Shown in pieces: positions 27,001 to 41,303 of a stretch of 41,303 nt of DNA. Positions within the stretch are counted from its first letter, which is position 1. Each line of letters starts with the position of its first letter. Origin of the DNA: an uncultured bacterium (lineage in GTDB: Bacteria; Zixibacteria; MSB-5A5; JAABVY01; JAHJOQ01). The stretch lies in the NCBI GenBank assembly GCA_965369655.1, contig CBDUQR010000025.1, positions 1-41,303 of the forward strand, given 5' to 3'. Made by a program: the position numbers.

Positions 27001-30000
27001 GAAATAGAATATCTGGAGTCCCATCAAGAGCAACAAAATGTCGCGCCAGATCAGATCGATTGCGCTCCCCTTCGCTCTGTCTGAGAGCGAGAAACAACCG
27101 CAGTTGATGTCGACGCCGCGCACATAGACAATTGTCAGCGCGATCAGGAACATCACGAGCATCACGTTGATGAGCGTCACCGCGCCTCTCGGCCACATCC
27201 CGATAATAAGGCAGATACCGGCGAGCATCTCGATCATCGGCAACCCGATCAGCTCCGCTCGAATTCCGCCTCGAGGTAAAGACTGTCGACGAAATCATCT
27301 GCATAGCATATCGCCGCCAGCATCAGGATCGTTACTGTACGCAGAAGCAAATTCATACCATTTCCGAATATCATCATAGCAAGCAAATTGACAGCGTGAC
27401 AGGCCACGCGTATATTCAGGCAAATATAAGGAGATACCGATGGGTCAGACAATAGCTGAAAAGATTTTCTCGAACAAAGCGGGGCGAACGATCGTGCCGG
27501 GCGAAATTATCGAAGTCGAGCCGGACATCGCGATGTCGCACGACAATACCGCAGACATCTCGAACACGTTCTACAAAATCGGCGTCGACAGGGTAGCAAG
27601 ACCGGACATACATGTGATTGTACTCGATCACTGCTCGCCGCCAGCGAATGAAAAGTACGCCGAGAATCACAAGATCGTACGCGAGTTTGTCAAGAAGCAG
27701 AGCATAGAGAATTTCTTCGACACCAATCGAGGAATCTGCCACCAGGTGCTGATCGAGGAAGGGTTCATCGTGCCCGGTATCGTCGCGGTCGGATCAGATT
27801 CCCATACGACCCATTACGGCGCGCTCGGAGCGTTCGGCGCGGGAATCGGCAGGTCGGAGATGGCGGTCGTGTTCGCCACAGGCAAGCTGTGGCTGCGTTG
27901 CCCGGAGTCTATCAAAATGACAATCAACGGCGCTTTCCAGCCGGGAGTCACGACGAAAGATCTGACGCTGCATATCATCGGCACGATCAAAGCCGACGGC
28001 GCGCTCTACAAGTGTATCGAATTTCACGGTGATTCGCTGAAACAGATGTCATTCGATTCGCGGCTGGTATTCTCGAATATGTCGGTCGAGATGGGCGCCA
28101 AGGCAGGAATCGTACCGCCGGATGATATAACGGACGAGTTCCTCAAGAATCGTGCGAGAAAAAAATACAAAGCTGTACTGCCCGATCCAGACGCTCGATA
28201 CGAGCAGGAACTGACGTTTGATATCAGCAATCTCGAACCGCAGGTCGCCTGTCCGCACACTGTCGATAATGTAAAGCCGGTTTCTGAAGTAGCGGGGACA
28301 AAGATCGACATGGCGTTCCTCGGAACATGCTGCAATGCGCGCCTCGAAGATCTTCGGAGCGCAGCAGAGATAGTAAAAGGCAAAAAGATCGCAAAGGGCG
28401 TGCGTTTTCAGGTGACGCCCGCATCCCAGCACGTCTATCTCGATGCGGTCAGGGACGGCACTATCGCCACCCTGATCGAATCGGGTGCGATCGTGACGAA
28501 CTCGAACTGCGGGCCATGTCTCGGCGCGCACATGGGTGTGCCTGCACCCAATGAAGTCGTCATCTCGACTGCGAATCGCAATTTCAAAGGCCGCATGGGT
28601 TCGAAAACATCCGAAGTCTATCTGGCATCACCCGCGACAGTAACAGCGGCAGCGCTGGCAGGTGAGATCGTCGATATCAGAAAGTTGTAATCGCACCAGA
28701 ACGAAGGCCTGCGCAACTGCGCAGGCACTGTTGTATCAGACGAAATAAATCCTGAGTCTATTCATGGCATGGGAACAGTCCGCCGCCGAATATATACGTG
28801 ATCAGATAGACAACATCGTCGATATCGACTTGATCCGAAGAGTTTGTGATTGCGAAAGGGCCTGCCGGTATTGGCAGGCCCTCAAAATCTCGTTGTCTAA
28901 GGCTCTCTTGAACTACGGTGAGCAGGGTGGCGGGCCACCGCCGAATATGTAGTCAACGAGCCACATAATATCATCTATGTCGACGGAATGTGAGCAGTCT
29001 GTATCAGCTCGGATTATCGAGCCCGGCAATGGCAATCCTCCGAAGATAAAGTCGACGATAGTGAGTATGTCATCGATATCTACGTTCCCGGATATGTCGA
29101 CATCACCCGGAAGGACTACCTGGTTCTCTGGAACAATCCACTGCTTCGGATTAGACGAGTACTTACCGACCAGGTAAACCTCACCCACGACCTCAAACGA
29201 GGTCTCTGTCATGCAGTCGCCCGACACGGTATAAGGATTGAGTGTCGTATCGAGCAGCACGCCATAGCAATCCAGGAAGGGAGCTATTGGGATCGTGATA
29301 GCCAGCACCTCTCCGACGAAGTCAGGATGACTCGGAAGGATCTCCGTGGAAAGCGCGGGAATCGAGTCATTGATTCTGATTGACGATTCGATTACGTCGC
29401 CCGCGCCGCAGCTATCATCGAAATTACCGAGATAGACCGTTGCCATGATCGAGTCGACCGCGAACTTGTAGTAGATGTGCGCCGGACCCGGCTCGAATAC
29501 AGTCGCCAATTCGCCGGAAGTCGTATCCGAGATGACAAGGGTAACGTCTGCGGTCTGAGGATCGTTCACGGCAGCCGGGTCAGACACGGTGACGATGGCA
29601 TCGTATGTACCAACAACGAGTCCGCTCACATCGACAAACAATGTACAGGTACCATCACCGATACCAGACGCCGGGTCAAGTGACAGCCAGGCGGCGGCGT
29701 CCGAGGCGGTCCAGTCGAGCGTGCCGCCACCAGTATTCGTGATAATCATCATCTGGCCCAATGGATTCGGTCCGCCTTCGGGAGCCTCGAAAAGGAAATC
29801 ATCAGGGTCAATAGCTAATTCCGGCGGAGGTTCCGCTATGTAGAGCGCAACTTTGGCGATTTGAGGACTGTTGACCGCATCAGGGTCGGAAACTGTCACA
29901 TTCGCAGAATAGACGCCTGCCGTGAGACTCGCGATACTTACCGACAGTGTACAAACGCCATCGCCAGTCCCGGATGTCGGGCTCAGAGCGAGCCACAACG

Positions 30001-39000: not shown

Positions 39001-41303
39001 GATCCACGATTGTACGCCAGATCGAAGTCGACGGTCGTAGTCTGCGTCGCGACCACTTCGACATCAACTTCTATTTTGGTTTCATAGTACGCGTCAGTCG
39101 CCCGAACATCGTATGTGCCGGGAGCAACGCCATCGAACTGATAGCTTCCACCACCAGACGAAATATCAGTGTCTATCACTGTTGAACCAGTCATGAGGTC
39201 AACGGTGACGCCATCAAGTGAGACACTCGTAACTGAATCAATTACAGTACCGTCGACAGTACCGGCATCAGCACCGAGAACAACAACTTTGACCAGCGTG
39301 CTGAAATCGCACCAACTCCATTCGGTATTCTGACCTTTGACTCGATAGTAATAGGTGCCCTGTGGCTGTCCCGTGATATCATAGAAAAGCGAGATCACAG
39401 AACTCGACAGGGTGTTGATCGTGTTGTAGAATACAGCAGGATACATATCATCGACGTACATGCCCTCTTCGAGAGTATACGAATCGGTTGTGTATCTGAA
39501 CCTGATGAAGATAGATTCCCTTTCGTAGTCTTCGAGAGAAAACGCCTGCCTGATCCATCCGCCGGAAGCGCCGGTATAGAGTTCGAGTATATCGAACTCG
39601 CGGCCATCGGTGGAAACCTCGACATAACCGTAATCCCAGTCGGTCTCTATATCGTACCATGTCCAGAATGTCAGCGAATCGCCCGGCTCGACGAAATACG
39701 GATGAACCGACGTCAGAGCATCGGCCACTTCATCATCATAACTCGACTTGAAAGACTTGCTGCCCGAATGGTAACGCGCGGTGGAAACGGTGAATCCATC
39801 GAGAGACCAGCGATTCGTGGAGCCTTCGGCGCCCTCGGTCACAACATCGAGTCCGGTCAGTTCGTCGATCTGCCAGAATATCGGCATGGCATCAGGATTG
39901 ACCTGAGTCCAATTAACAGTATAATCACCTGTCAGGCTCGTATCAGGAGCAGTAACAATCGGCGGAATCACTCTCGGAGTCAGATCGCTGCGGATGCTGC
40001 CAGCCTGTTCGAGCATATAGAACGCACCATCAAAATTTTCCCTGACGATCTGCGCAAGGTGAACCGTCGGCGGCTGAAACTGCTGGCCAATCTCGACCGT
40101 ATAGAACAGAAAATCAGCGCCATCAACATAATGGTGATATCCATAAACCCAGTCGGTAGCGTCACCGGTCGTGGGATAAAGCTGAGCAGACTGCTGTGGA
40201 AGGTATGTTCCGGTGTAATCTTCCTGGGCTATCAGGTTGGCAATGCCCGTACCGAGATCGGCAATATAATCGCTGTTCGGCGCGGAATAGTATCCGTATG
40301 CCCATGACCAGATGACCATTTCCCCGTGAGTGTGGAATGTCAAACCAGCCACGAAATCTCTTGTCGCTATGAAATCTCGCTCCACCGAGGTCTCCGCTTC
40401 AGAGAATGGACTCGGACCGCAATACACCGATGAACTCGGATCGTGTGTAATATTACCGATCGTCGTTCCCCATTCACCTTCGGGATGACCGTCAGTGGAA
40501 CCAGCATAGTTTCTGTTCAGATCGACTCCGACAGTGCCATATTCCGGGAACGGCCTGCGGTTCTTGCGCCAGTCGATCCCCAAATCATGCGAGTAGACAT
40601 ATCCATCCGGATTAAGACATGGAATAAAGTAAATCTCCCGACTGTTGACCTGCAAAGTGACCGCCGGATCTGAACCATAGGCACTGGTGAGACTGTCCAG
40701 AATAAACATGCTGACGACAAGGCTCGGCCATTCGCGGGCATGAGTCAAACCTGTATACAGCACCTCTGCCTCATCTTCGTCGATTTCAACATTGTCGGAA
40801 AGTTTCACGACCTGAATAGGCCGACCCTCGTAGGACCAGCCGATAGTGTCCATTATGCAGAGAGTTGGATAATTACTTACGATGTCGTGTAGATCAGTCT
40901 GGAATTCTGCCCATGTCGGATACGATTCAGCGGCTTCCCGCATCAACTCATCGACATTCTTGTGCAACAATTGCACAAAAAGACCGCGAGCGACAAGATC
41001 ATCGATCTGTGCATCGGTGACAACCGCGTCAACCCATTCGCCCGGCTTATGTCCGGGTATATCGAGACCTCTCGGCAGAAGGTCCGCCTCTGTTTTGTCT
41101 GTAACCTGAATTCTAACAAGGTTTTTGGCGTCGCCCGCGCCAAGTGAGTCGGGCGGCATGAGAAAAATCGCGCAGAAAATAATGAGTATCGCACATGTCG
41201 ATCCAAGCCTGAAAATACCCGTTGTCTTGGACATAGTTCCTCCGAATCATACTTTGATAGAAATTGCAAGCATCAAGTCAAAATCAGTCCTGTATGTACA
41301 GGG

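What a model noticed while it worked through the whole genome (the two positions that open the first line are those of the whole stretch)
28913..41234. About 85 dockerin-tagged secreted proteins, dominated by peptidases
89 of 2516 called proteins carry one uniform, duplicated calcium-loop dockerin module, and in 83 it is at the extreme C-terminus. The recognisable enzymes among them are peptidases of nine families plus a PAD-type deiminase, and none has a Pfam glycoside-hydrolase family. The interval given is a representative cluster: BACON-, M14-, C25- and M14-dockerin genes g1557-g1561.
Evidence so far: Count and position: - HMM: 89 hits, 80 within 15 aa of the C-terminus and 83 within 20 aa; 7.0% of proteome residues. 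- C-terminal clustering gives 80 dockerin and 42 T9SS-tail proteins. Identity: - 62-module alignment, 53% mean column identity. - PDB profile search: 22 of 22 hits are dockerins. - Pfam Dockerin_1 over its cut-off in 6 proteins. Cargo: - Pfam of 75 proteins: 21 peptidases (S8 x5, C25 x6, C10 x3, M14 x2, C1, C39_2, M1, M6, Trypsin_2), 1 PAD_porph, 0 Glyco_hydro, 30 without a family. Shared module and distribution: - Dockerin DNA aligns in 1352 of 3081 pairs, against 5 of 3003 pairs upstream. - 61 of 61 genomes of the phylum match. - 0 papers hold Zixibacteria+dockerin.
(Added by a program. Inside this text positions count along the whole contig: contig position 1 is position 1 of the stretch shown here. 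"Call 12" and the like, gene names such as g00115 and contig names such as C1 are that model's own, and its searches are not shown. The text may have been shortened before it was handed on; [...] marks where a part breaks off. The agent that wrote the report below was given it as the finding of a first reader that could run no searches.)

Follow-up and report, generated by a model that had tools for sequence, protein, structure and literature searches.

The report
Dockerin-tagged peptidases with T9SS-anchored cohesins
This uncultured marine-sediment bacterium tags about ninety secreted proteins, a quarter of them protein-cutting enzymes, with one uniform "plug" (dockerin), and its genome also encodes the matching "sockets" (cohesins) on proteins built to be fixed to the cell surface, so it probably displays a protein-digesting toolkit the way cellulose degraders display cellulosomes.

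Summary
All four minus-strand genes at 28913-41234, and a fifth at 23119-24543, end in a duplicated calcium-loop dockerin. Genome-wide I find 93 dockerin ORFs, 84 with the module within 20 residues of the C-terminus. Of the 93, 23 are peptidases of 11 families, one is a PAD-type deiminase, none has a Glyco_hydro family, and 42 have no cargo family.

The genome encodes about 28 cohesin-bearing proteins in three sequence types. The cohesin fold is supported by Pfam, PDB profiles and two AlphaFold models (VIA Z 16.7-18.4 to solved cohesins). Ten of them end in type IX secretion (T9SS) sorting domains, twelve carry the uniform dockerin themselves, and one of those twelve is the "BACON" gene of the interval. 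PorU and SprA are present.

Dockerin and type-B cohesin each occur in 80 of 81 sampled genomes of the phylum, and the same genome lacks both.

Best reading: a cell-surface cohesin-dockerin display system for peptidases, anchored through T9SS. No binding was tested, and the cargo's route across the outer membrane remains unknown.

A similar arrangement was proposed in silico for Cloacimonadota (PMC8542988). This scan has already reported the system on other Zixibacteria DNA. I rate it a new variant of a known kind.

The parts
28913..31051 (-). 712-aa secreted protein. Order: signal peptide, cohesin-like type-C domain, three BACON_2 / choice-of-anchor-D repeats, unassigned region, C-terminal dockerin. 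An adaptor candidate.
   Evidence: ORF. BACON_2 at 70 bits. choice_anch_D at 48 bits, over its cut-off of 45. The cohesin-like domain and the dockerin are listed as separate parts below.
30440..30958 (-). Cohesin-like domain, type C, residues ~38-204 of the 712-aa protein.
   Evidence: Picked up by jackhmmer from a type-A cohesin seed. Seven paralogues in this genome (alignment A5; 291 bits at C25:30452-30958). hhalign of A5 against type-A cohesins: 95.8%, E 7e-9. No direct PDB sequence hit. Not folded here.
28919..29113 (-). Dockerin module of the 712-aa protein, the most divergent of the five in the window.
   Evidence: 84.4 bits with the genome's own dockerin HMM. Not listed by Pfam at E<=0.01.
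31265..34279 (-). M14 zinc carboxypeptidase. Order: M14, CarboxypepD_reg, two He_PIG Ig domains, dockerin. The true start is probably the internal Met before the hydrophobic stretch, about residue 46.
   Evidence: Peptidase_M14 at 175.8 bits; the HxxE zinc motif is visible as 'HGNE'. Dockerin at 31274-31468, 105.3 bits.
34546..38421 (-). Gingipain-type C25 cysteine peptidase. Order: propeptide, C25 domain, TSP_3 calcium repeats, Ig domains, dockerin.
   Evidence: Peptidase_C25 at 183.3 bits and Propeptide_C25 at 34.6 bits. Dockerin at 34555-34749, 102.4 bits.
38544..41234 (-). M14 zinc carboxypeptidase. Order: M14, InhA-like MAM, two CarboxypepD_reg domains, dockerin.
   Evidence: Peptidase_M14 at 195.1 bits; HxxE visible as 'HARE'. 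Dockerin at 38553-38747, 113.4 bits. Pfam Dockerin_1 at 22.4 bits, 25.2 with neighbours.
23119..24543 (+). 474-aa protein with no cargo family and a C-terminal dockerin.
   Evidence: Dockerin_1 at 23.9 bits by hmmscan and 28 bits in the six-frame search. Own HMM 113.2 bits at 24349-24540.

Best explanation
The interval is one of 14 small clusters of genes for Sec-exported proteins that end in one uniform, cysteine-bearing, duplicated calcium-loop dockerin (here called Z1). The same genome encodes the partners: about 28 proteins with cohesin modules of three sequence types (A, B and a lineage-specific C).

Ten of these cohesin proteins end in a type-A T9SS C-terminal sorting domain. The T9SS sortase PorU and the translocon SprA are encoded. 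The inference is that these cohesin proteins are exported by T9SS and fixed to the outer face of the outer membrane, where they act as sockets. Z1-tagged cargo plugs into them, directly or through the twelve proteins that carry both a cohesin and a Z1 dockerin (adaptors, or enzymes that can chain).

The cargo covers C25, C10, C1, S8, M14, M1, M6, M28, astacin and trypsin-like peptidases, a PAD-type deiminase, and many propeller or adhesin-like proteins. The result would be a cell-bound, modular coat of protein-degrading enzymes.

Shown here: the modules, their folds, their positions, their co-occurrence across the phylum, and the T9SS parts.

Inferred, not shown: that Z1 binds any of these cohesins, which cohesin type it binds, surface attachment, calcium dependence, proteolytic activity, and how Z1 cargo crosses the outer membrane.
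For: Dockerin identity and number.

Cohesins by Pfam: PF00963 is over its cut-off in C15:18997 (30.5 bits), C28:31751 (32.9), C28:34250 (58.9) and C1:225891 (26.9).

Cohesins by PDB profile: for the type-A profile, the 18 best PDB hits (E<=0.0021) are all cohesins. For the type-B profile, the 4 hits below 1e-3 are all cohesins.

Cohesins by fold: the model of C15_298 (pLDDT 81) scores VIA Z 18.4, rmsd 1.6 A, 142 of 144 residues against cohesin 4uyp_A, and the listed Foldseek rows are all cohesins. The model of the C26 cassette scores Z 16.7 against 4uyp_A, and its last 85 residues score Z 9.3-9.5 against the sorting domains of PorZ, PorU and mirolase.

T9SS tails on cohesin proteins: Por_Secre_tail / TIGR04183 are over cut-off.

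T9SS machinery: PorU 642 bits (cut-off 420) and SprA 692 bits.

Phylum: Z1 dockerin in 80/81 genomes and type-B cohesin in 80/81, with the same genome (G065, 94% complete) lacking both. Type-A cohesin in 41/41.

Conserved cassette: in 23 ORFs of relatives (689-3515 aa) the type-B cohesin starts 469-499 aa before a T9SS-type C-terminus.

Conserved gene pair: a ~860-aa type-B gene followed about 2.1 kb downstream by a ~815-aa type-A gene, as at own C28:28623-34201, recurs on the same strand in at least 15 relatives (coordinates).

Choice of anchor: of 7 non-PorU C25 genes, 6 carry Z1. Of 8 S8 genes, 5 carry Z1 and 2 a T9SS tail. Two interval proteins carry NCBIfam 'choice-of-anchor' matches: choice_anch_D over cut-off in the 712-aa protein, and choice_anch_J below cut-off (17.5 vs 30) in the 896-aa M14.

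Parallel: the same enzyme classes (gingipains, a carboxypeptidase, PPAD, C10 peptidases) are surface-retained T9SS cargo in P. gingivalis (PMC5445135, passages).
Against: All three cohesin types also occur fused to Z1 itself, so architecture does not say which type is Z1's socket.

No polyvalent scaffoldin was found: at most 2-3 cohesins per protein. About 33 sockets for 93 plugs means stoichiometry depends on expression.

Z1 cargo has no T9SS tail, and none of the three secretins reaches the GspD cut-off (161-179 bits against 351). The cargo's route to the surface is therefore unexplained.

Two of the ten 'T9SS-tailed' cohesin proteins are just under the Por_Secre_tail cut-off (21.2 and 26.9 against 27), although FlgD_ig is over its cut-off in both.

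PorV and PorK/L/M/N were not searched.

42 of 93 cargo proteins have no family, so 'proteolytic' describes only part of the cargo.

No RNA run holds the stretch, so expression is unknown.
Confidence: 0.66

Rival explanations
1. The Z1 module is chiefly a C-terminal sorting or export signal in its own right, recognised by an unidentified outer-membrane export or attachment machinery. It would be a true alternative to the T9SS tail, and cohesin binding would be secondary or restricted to a few proteins.
For: Z1 sits at the extreme C-terminus in 84 of 93 ORFs. It is mutually exclusive with the T9SS tail at the C-terminus: only 5 ORFs have both kinds of hit, and in the four complete ones the dockerin is internal; the fifth, C29:3-788, is a contig-end fragment. 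It is extremely uniform within and between genomes. Peptidase families split between Z1 and T9SS tails. 'Choice-of-anchor' domain matches occur in the cargo. No GspD-class secretin was found.
Against: The module is a bona fide dockerin by sequence, and cohesins co-occur with it in 80/81 genomes. Nine ORFs carry it internally or N-terminally, which does not fit a strict C-terminal signal. No candidate machinery was identified.
Confidence: 0.1
2. The cohesin-dockerin network mainly builds a non-enzymatic extracellular mesh (adhesion, cell-cell or cell-particle contact, S-layer-like coat). Peptidases would be a minority passenger rather than the purpose.
For: 70 of 93 Z1 proteins are not recognisable peptidases. 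Many carry FG-GAP, SBBP or PQQ propellers, BACON, Ig-like, TSP_3, LTD or lectin-like domains. Twelve proteins carry both cohesin and dockerin and could chain. Earlier notes of this scan on other genomes read the system this way.
Against: Peptidases are the only large enzyme class. Most of the genome's C25 (6 of 7 non-PorU), S8 (5 of 8) and full-length M14 (2 of 2) genes are Z1-tagged. This points to selection for displaying proteolysis. The two readings are not exclusive.
Confidence: 0.15
3. It is a classical polysaccharide-degrading cellulosome.
For: Cohesin and dockerin modules are present. There are BACON domains, two beta-helix proteins, one BNR_2 protein and one Fib_succ_major protein among the cargo.
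Against: 0 of 93 Z1 proteins has a Glyco_hydro family at E<=1e-5. No CBM2 or CBM3 was seen on the cohesin proteins scanned. Anchoring is by T9SS tails, not by SLH domains or sortase.
Confidence: 0.03

Closest known systems
Cellulosome-like complex proposed in silico for 'Ca. Stygibacter' (Cloacimonadota), Williams et al. 2021, PMC8542988 (abstract and passages read)
   Same: A Gram-negative lineage of the FCB group. Signal-peptide enzymes carry C-terminal dockerins, including S8 and C25 peptidases. The cohesin-bearing protein ends in a T9SS C-terminal domain. The proposed role is extracellular polymer degradation.
   Different: There, a single 3,755-aa scaffoldin has tandem cohesins and CBM2/CBM3, only a handful of dockerin enzymes are named, and these include GH18 and GH57. 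Here there are ~93 dockerin proteins, no Glyco_hydro cargo, about 28 mostly monovalent cohesin proteins of three types, and a conserved cassette (type-B cohesin, second dockerin type, beta-sandwich, T9SS tail). The trait is found in 80/81 genomes sampled from the phylum. Whether the modules of the two phyla are orthologous was not tested.
Clostridial and ruminococcal cellulosomes (type I/II/III cohesin-dockerin pairs; solved examples 4uyp, 2vn5, 1ohz, 3ul4)
   Same: Same two module folds. The dockerin has two 12-residue calcium loops each followed by a helix, and the two halves are near-identical, as in dual-binding-mode dockerins. There are adaptor proteins with one cohesin plus one dockerin, and a second, distinct dockerin type on the cohesin-bearing proteins.
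   Different: The cargo is peptidases and non-enzymatic proteins, not glycoside hydrolases. Anchoring is through T9SS tails on a diderm, instead of SLH or sortase on a monoderm. No long polyvalent scaffoldin exists. The dockerin typically has four cysteines (40 of 84 modules). The type-B cohesin has a Cys-rich insert. Sequence identity to solved cohesins is 14-23%.
T9SS cargo coat of Porphyromonas gingivalis (gingipains, CPG70, PPAD, PrtT/periodontain), Lasica et al. 2017, PMC5445135 (passages read)
   Same: The same enzyme classes (C25, a carboxypeptidase, PAD_porph, C10) are displayed on the cell surface of an FCB-group bacterium that has PorU.
   Different: There, each enzyme carries its own T9SS C-terminal domain and is linked covalently to A-LPS. 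Here, the enzymes carry a dockerin and only the cohesin proteins carry the T9SS domain, so attachment would be indirect and non-covalent. That CPG70 belongs to family M14 is recalled, not taken from a call.
Non-cellulosomal cohesin/dockerin expansions, e.g. ANME archaea (Chadwick et al. 2022, PMC9012536; passages read)
   Same: Large numbers of dockerin and cohesin proteins in sediment organisms that do not degrade cellulose. Scaffoldin-like proteins have a dockerin plus several cohesins. The function is unknown.
   Different: Archaeal envelope with no T9SS. The cargo classes differ. Peer et al. 2009 (cited there) could not be read.

Membership tests
Dockerin (Pfam PF00404, type I-like) | Two tandem ~22-residue segments, each a 12-residue EF-hand-like calcium loop followed by a helix | tested here: met
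   70 of 84 C-terminal modules match the loop pattern twice, 12 once and 2 not at all. The model of C15_298 has two helices at 215-226 and 248-260 in the dockerin part.
Dockerin (Pfam PF00404, type I-like) | Score over Pfam's gathering cut-off (22.9 bits) | tested here: met
   Genome: 45 of 55 places at E<=0.01 are over the cut-off. For the interval's four genes the result is weaker: one is over only when neighbours are counted, two are at 19.6-20 bits, and one is not listed.
Dockerin (Pfam PF00404, type I-like) | Similarity to solved dockerins | tested here: met
   The profile of 60 modules hits 20 PDB sequences at E<=0.01. Eighteen are named dockerin chains and two are a 'Serine protease' with the same repeat.
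Dockerin (Pfam PF00404, type I-like) | Calcium-dependent binding to a cohesin | not testable with these tools
Cohesin (Pfam PF00963) | Score over Pfam's cut-off (24.1 bits) | tested here: met
   Four proteins are over: 30.5, 32.9, 58.9 and 26.9 bits. Most of the ~28 candidates are found only by iterated search.
Cohesin (Pfam PF00963) | Nine-stranded jelly-roll beta-sandwich superposable on solved cohesins | tested here: met
   Type B: Z 18.4, rmsd 1.6 A, 142 of 144 residues; Z 16.7, rmsd 2.3 A, 143 of 144. Types A and C were not folded. Type A profile to PDB cohesins: E 6.5e-7. Type C only through hhalign to type A: 95.8%.
T9SS type-A cargo (TIGR04183 / PF18962 C-terminal domain) | C-terminal sorting domain over the family cut-off | tested here: met
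   TIGR04183 at 34-42 bits (cut-off 23) in the four proteins scanned. PF18962 is at or over 27 bits in 8 of the 10 cohesin proteins and at 21.2 and 26.9 in two. Fold: Z 9.3-9.5 to the CTDs of PorZ, PorU and mirolase.
T9SS type-A cargo (TIGR04183 / PF18962 C-terminal domain) | Genome encodes the T9SS machinery | tested here: met
   PorU 642 bits (cut-off 420) and SprA 692 bits summed (cut-off 200). PorV and PorK/L/M/N were not searched.
Cellulosome (sensu stricto) | Dockerin-borne glycoside hydrolases | tested here: not met
   0 of 93 dockerin ORFs has a Glyco_hydro family at E<=1e-5.
Cellulosome (sensu stricto) | Polyvalent scaffoldin with many tandem cohesins and a cellulose-binding module | tested here: not met
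   At most 2-3 cohesin modules per ORF. No CBM2 or CBM3 at E<=0.01 on the cohesin proteins scanned.
Cloacimonadota-type T9SS-anchored cellulosome-like complex (PMC8542988) | Dockerins on S8 and C25 peptidases plus a cohesin protein ending in a T9SS C-terminal domain | tested here: met
   5 S8 and 6 C25 peptidases carry Z1. Ten cohesin proteins have T9SS tails. Homology of the modules between the two phyla was not tested.

The most novel reading that the evidence does not exclude
Z1-tagged cargo has no outer-membrane export signal of its own. It folds and binds calcium in the periplasm and plugs into a cohesin protein that carries the T9SS tail. It is then carried through the very wide SprA translocon as a passenger (piggy-back secretion). 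One T9SS tail would thus serve many cargo proteins, and the dockerin would be both export ticket and surface anchor. This would be a new way of recruiting substrates to T9SS. It would also explain why the phylum moved gingipain-, PAD- and carboxypeptidase-type enzymes from T9SS tails to dockerins.
Probability: 0.1. Interest if true: 0.9.

Novelty: new variant of a known kind. Interest (0 to 1): 0.62.

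Why it matters
Zixibacteria are common in anoxic sediments, and exported peptidase genes in such sediments have been assigned to them (PMC6365825, passages).

If about 6% of the genome encodes a plug-and-socket surface coat of peptidases, this is a major and so far undescribed strategy for protein degradation in sediments.

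It would also extend the cellulosome principle to diderm bacteria, to T9SS anchoring and to proteolysis.

The modules are small and uniform. The binding code (Z1 and Z2 dockerins against three cohesin types) can therefore be tested directly with recombinant domains. An orthogonal, cysteine-stabilised cohesin-dockerin pair would be useful for designer enzyme assemblies.

The open export step bears on how T9SS, or an unknown system, selects substrates.

Tried and rejected
1. Complex prediction (type-B cohesin against Z1 dockerin, with Ca) was not available. Nothing was folded, so there is no result on binding.

2. As a substitute I folded two natural single chains. The outputs give pLDDT, pTM and secondary structure only, with no inter-domain error map. 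Whether the dockerin sits on the cohesin face cannot be read from them. The pTM values (0.74 and 0.47) are not interpretable as evidence of binding.

3. A secretin gene lies directly upstream of the type-B cohesin + dockerin gene at C15:18997. This suggested a dedicated export channel. tblastn of that secretin and of its neighbours found nothing in the 29 relatives' loci around their best homologues. The adjacency is not conserved and the idea was dropped.

4. The X domain of the cassette (residues ~305-398 of the modelled piece, nine strands, pLDDT ~91) gave no match to type-A cohesins (hhalign 0.3%) and no PDB sequence hit. In the whole-model VIA search it was barely tested. One row (3l8q_A cohesin dyad, model range 3..399, rmsd 21 A) is only a hint.

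5. The Z2 dockerin profile gives only one PDB hit (3ul4_B, E 0.0019).

6. Type-C cohesin-like profile: no PDB sequence hit. It was found in 7 of 41 genomes only, own family plus partial matches in f4.

7. The genome-contig scan with the cassette was swamped by the T9SS-tail pattern. Only 9 of 79 loci cover the whole cassette.

8. No RNA holder was listed for 34546-41234.

9. Literature. Zixibacteria+dockerin gave 0 papers. The search for Zixibacteria with cellulosome, cohesin or scaffoldin at min 2 terms listed no paper holding Zixibacteria among the 15 shown. The '8X39' search gave nothing relevant. PMC3035643 (Peer 2009) is not held. PMC11557425 has none of the five terms I looked for. Supplements were not opened.

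Full report
WHAT IS IN THE INTERVAL. Four long minus-strand ORFs fill 28913-41234. Pfam assigns them as follows: a BACON_2-repeat protein (712 aa), an M14 carboxypeptidase (1004 aa as listed), a C25 gingipain-type peptidase with its propeptide (1291 aa), and a second M14 carboxypeptidase (896 aa). All four end in the same ~65-residue module, made of two near-identical halves (GD-x-D-G/C-S-G-x-V-D-I-D-D-V-V-Y-L-I-x-Y-I-F-x-G-G-P) and usually closed by C-x-x-C. A fifth gene with this ending lies at 23119-24543 on the plus strand. The rest of the window holds housekeeping and defence-type genes.

An HMM seeded on the four modules and iterated over 12,701 stop-to-stop ORFs finds 93 ORFs. In 84 the module ends within 20 residues of the C-terminus.
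- Pfam Dockerin_1 in six frames gives 55 places at E<=0.01, 45 of them over the curated cut-off.
- A profile of 60 modules hits only dockerin-type chains in the PDB, 20 of 20 at E<=0.01.
- 70 of 84 C-terminal modules have both 12-residue calcium loops, and 40 of 84 have four cysteines.
- The coding DNA of the module aligns in 1689 of 3321 pairs, against 3 of 3321 for the segment just upstream.
- 79 of 93 ORFs have a signal-like N-terminus by a crude rule. The 93 ORFs take 6.5% of the genome's bases, measured stop to stop, which is a slight overestimate.
- 38 of 93 lie in 14 runs of neighbouring genes. The interval is one such run.

CARGO. Pfam at E<=1e-5 on all 93 ORFs gives these classes.
- 23 peptidases: S8 x5, C25 x6, C10 x3, M14 x2, and one each of C1, C39_2, M1, M6, Trypsin_2, M28 and astacin.
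- 1 PAD_porph and 0 Glyco_hydro.
- 27 with other domains: FG-GAP, SBBP/DUF7948, PQQ_2, Beta_helix, BNR_2, BACON_2, Laminin_G_3, Fib_succ_major, Abhydrolase_6, cohesin and others.
- 42 with no family besides the dockerin.

'Dominated by peptidases' is therefore true of the recognisable enzymes, not of the set as a whole. Seen from the peptidase side, 6 of 7 non-PorU C25 genes, 5 of 8 S8 genes and both full-length M14 genes of the genome are dockerin-tagged. Two further S8 genes carry T9SS tails.

THE MISSING PARTNER. Pfam Cohesin is over its cut-off at three places in the genome, plus a fourth when neighbours are counted. Iterated searches from those seeds recover 27 ORFs (19 at a stricter threshold). 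One more comes from Pfam (C1:225891). They fall into three types.
- Type A is classical. For its profile, the 18 best PDB hits are all cohesins, best E 6.5e-7.
- Type B has a Cys-rich insert (CGWEYFTYR...CPSG...W-x-DCGDN). Its 4 PDB hits below 1e-3 are all cohesins. Two AlphaFold models superpose on solved cohesins at Z 18.4 (rmsd 1.6 A, 142 of 144 residues) and Z 16.7.
- Type C is a lineage-specific family of seven paralogues. It is linked to type A only by profile-profile comparison (95.8%) and is found essentially only in this genome's family. It includes residues ~38-204 of the interval's 'BACON' protein.

ARCHITECTURES.
- Ten cohesin proteins end in a T9SS type-A sorting domain: C2:49238, C5:38760, C5:39904, C26:108, C28:28623, C28:31751, C28:34250, C33:12445, C40:3494 and C90:3.
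- Twelve carry a cohesin and the uniform dockerin together. Among them are an S8 and a C10 peptidase, in which the cohesin directly precedes the dockerin, and the interval's first gene.
- Four are small stand-alone cohesins.
- Type-B cohesins sit in a conserved cassette: type-B cohesin, a second and different dockerin type (Z2, consensus RGDxNLNGIAYEIADAVL...ASDVNxDG..L.VADLVYLIRVVVGD), a ~95-residue beta-sandwich (X), then the T9SS tail.
- In relatives, the type-B cohesin starts 469-499 residues before a T9SS-type C-terminus in 23 ORFs of 689 to 3515 aa. In three ORFs the same cassette ends in a Z1 dockerin instead.
- The gene pair '~860-aa type-B protein, then ~815-aa type-A protein' of own contig C28 recurs on the same strand and at the same spacing in at least 15 relatives (coordinates).

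MACHINERY AND DISTRIBUTION. PorU (642 bits, cut-off 420) and SprA (692 bits summed) are encoded. There are three short secretins, none of which reaches the GspD cut-off.

Type-B cohesin is found in 80 of 81 (1-19 copies). The single genome without one also lacks the other (G065, 94% complete). Type A is in 41 of 41.

Records holding the whole cassette are labelled Candidatus Zixiibacteriota (3), Ignavibacteria or Ignavibacteriales (4), Calditrichaeota (1) or 'uncultured bacterium' (1). One 'Ignavibacteria' record is the same contig as a genome that the genome tool places in the class of the window's genome, so some labels look wrong.

Runs holding the stretch are marine-sediment metagenomes from one study, and one of them may be the source of this DNA.

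HOW IT MOST LIKELY WORKS. Cohesin proteins with T9SS tails are exported and, by analogy with P. gingivalis cargo (PMC5445135), fixed to the cell surface by PorU. Sec-exported proteins ending in Z1 plug into these sockets, directly or through cohesin+Z1 adaptors. Z2 dockerins on the anchors may cross-link anchors through another cohesin type. The cell then wears a modular coat in which endopeptidases (C25, C10, C1, S8, M6, astacin), exopeptidases (M14, M1, M28) and a deiminase act side by side on protein substrates.

The modules, folds, positions, machinery and co-occurrence are shown. Binding, pairing specificity, surface location, activity and expression are inferred. The step I cannot explain is how Z1 cargo crosses the outer membrane. 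It has no T9SS tail, and no GspD-class secretin was found. This leaves room for the bold reading that cargo rides out bound to a tailed cohesin protein.

COMPARISON AND NOVELTY. The closest description in print is the in-silico proposal for 'Ca. Stygibacter' (Cloacimonadota). There, dockerins occur on GH18, GH57, S8 and C25 enzymes, and a 3,755-aa scaffoldin has tandem cohesins, CBMs and a T9SS C-terminal domain (PMC8542988).

The present system shares that logic. It differs in scale, in the lack of glycoside hydrolases, in using many mostly monovalent anchors instead of one polyvalent scaffoldin, in the Cys-bearing uniform dockerin, in the type-B cohesin cassette, and in being a trait of nearly the whole phylum sample. 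It fails two defining features of a cellulosome in the strict sense.

No held paper has both Zixibacteria and dockerin. Supplements were not examined. Earlier notes of this scan had already described the adaptor, the cassette, the conserved anchor cluster and a protease island on other Zixibacteria DNA. My results agree with them and add the genome-wide census, the partition of peptidase families between the two anchors, and the 80/81 co-occurrence. I found the Cloacimonadota paper before reading those notes.

VERDICT. I class it as a new variant of a known kind. Confidence in the surface-display reading is 0.66, and interest is 0.62.

Noticed in passing
G000 C1:190301-192913 (-), locus L015: An astacin-type metallopeptidase (151 bits) carries an internal uniform dockerin, then a ~140-residue domain, then a T9SS tail. 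It is the only enzyme seen with both anchors on one chain.
   Followed up: partly
G000 C1:156507-157916 (-) and C15:43639-44463 (+); loci L013, L014, L055: Three small proteins (~230-270 aa) have the dockerin at the N-terminus, right after the signal peptide. It is followed by a 142-residue Cys-rich domain with no Pfam or NCBIfam family. Two of them are tandem paralogues.
   Followed up: no
G000 C15:42764-43678 (-), locus L054: A Fib_succ_major domain protein (194 bits) has an N-terminal dockerin. The orientation is opposite to nearly all other cargo.
   Followed up: no
G000 C15:13600-19893 (locus L125 5601-11893): Three family-less genes (297, 238 and 578 aa), a short secretin (449 aa) and a 120-aa ORF lie directly upstream of the type-B cohesin + dockerin gene. 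The adjacency was not found in 29 relatives' loci.
   Followed up: yes
G065 (genome search handle; family f13): This is the only genome of 81 sampled that lacks both the uniform dockerin and the type-B cohesin (94% complete). It is a natural comparison genome for the system's function.
   Followed up: no
locus L167 (record labelled 'uncultured Ignavibacteria bacterium') = G017:C17: The public label conflicts with the genome tool's placement of G017 in the same class as the window's genome. Several 'Ignavibacteria' labels on cassette-bearing MAGs may be wrong.
   Followed up: partly
window 19472-21065 (+): A DUF6088 + AbiEii (type IV toxin-antitoxin) gene pair lies in the lowest-GC stretch of the window (0.425-0.454 at 18-22 kb, against ~0.52 elsewhere).
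   Followed up: no
window 13083-16903 (+): An 868-aa HATPase_c_3 protein is followed by a 405-aa DNA methylase (N6_N4_Mtase). This looks like a defence or restriction-type pair.
   Followed up: no
window 2878-5059 (-): LpxA and a fused LpxC-FabZ gene (LpxC 281.9 bits + FabA-like 137.3 bits in one 471-aa ORF). This confirms a lipid-A-making diderm.
   Followed up: no
G000 C10:45746-46885 (+): This is the one C25-family gene besides PorU that is not in the dockerin list (797-aa ORF). Its C-terminus was not examined.
   Followed up: no
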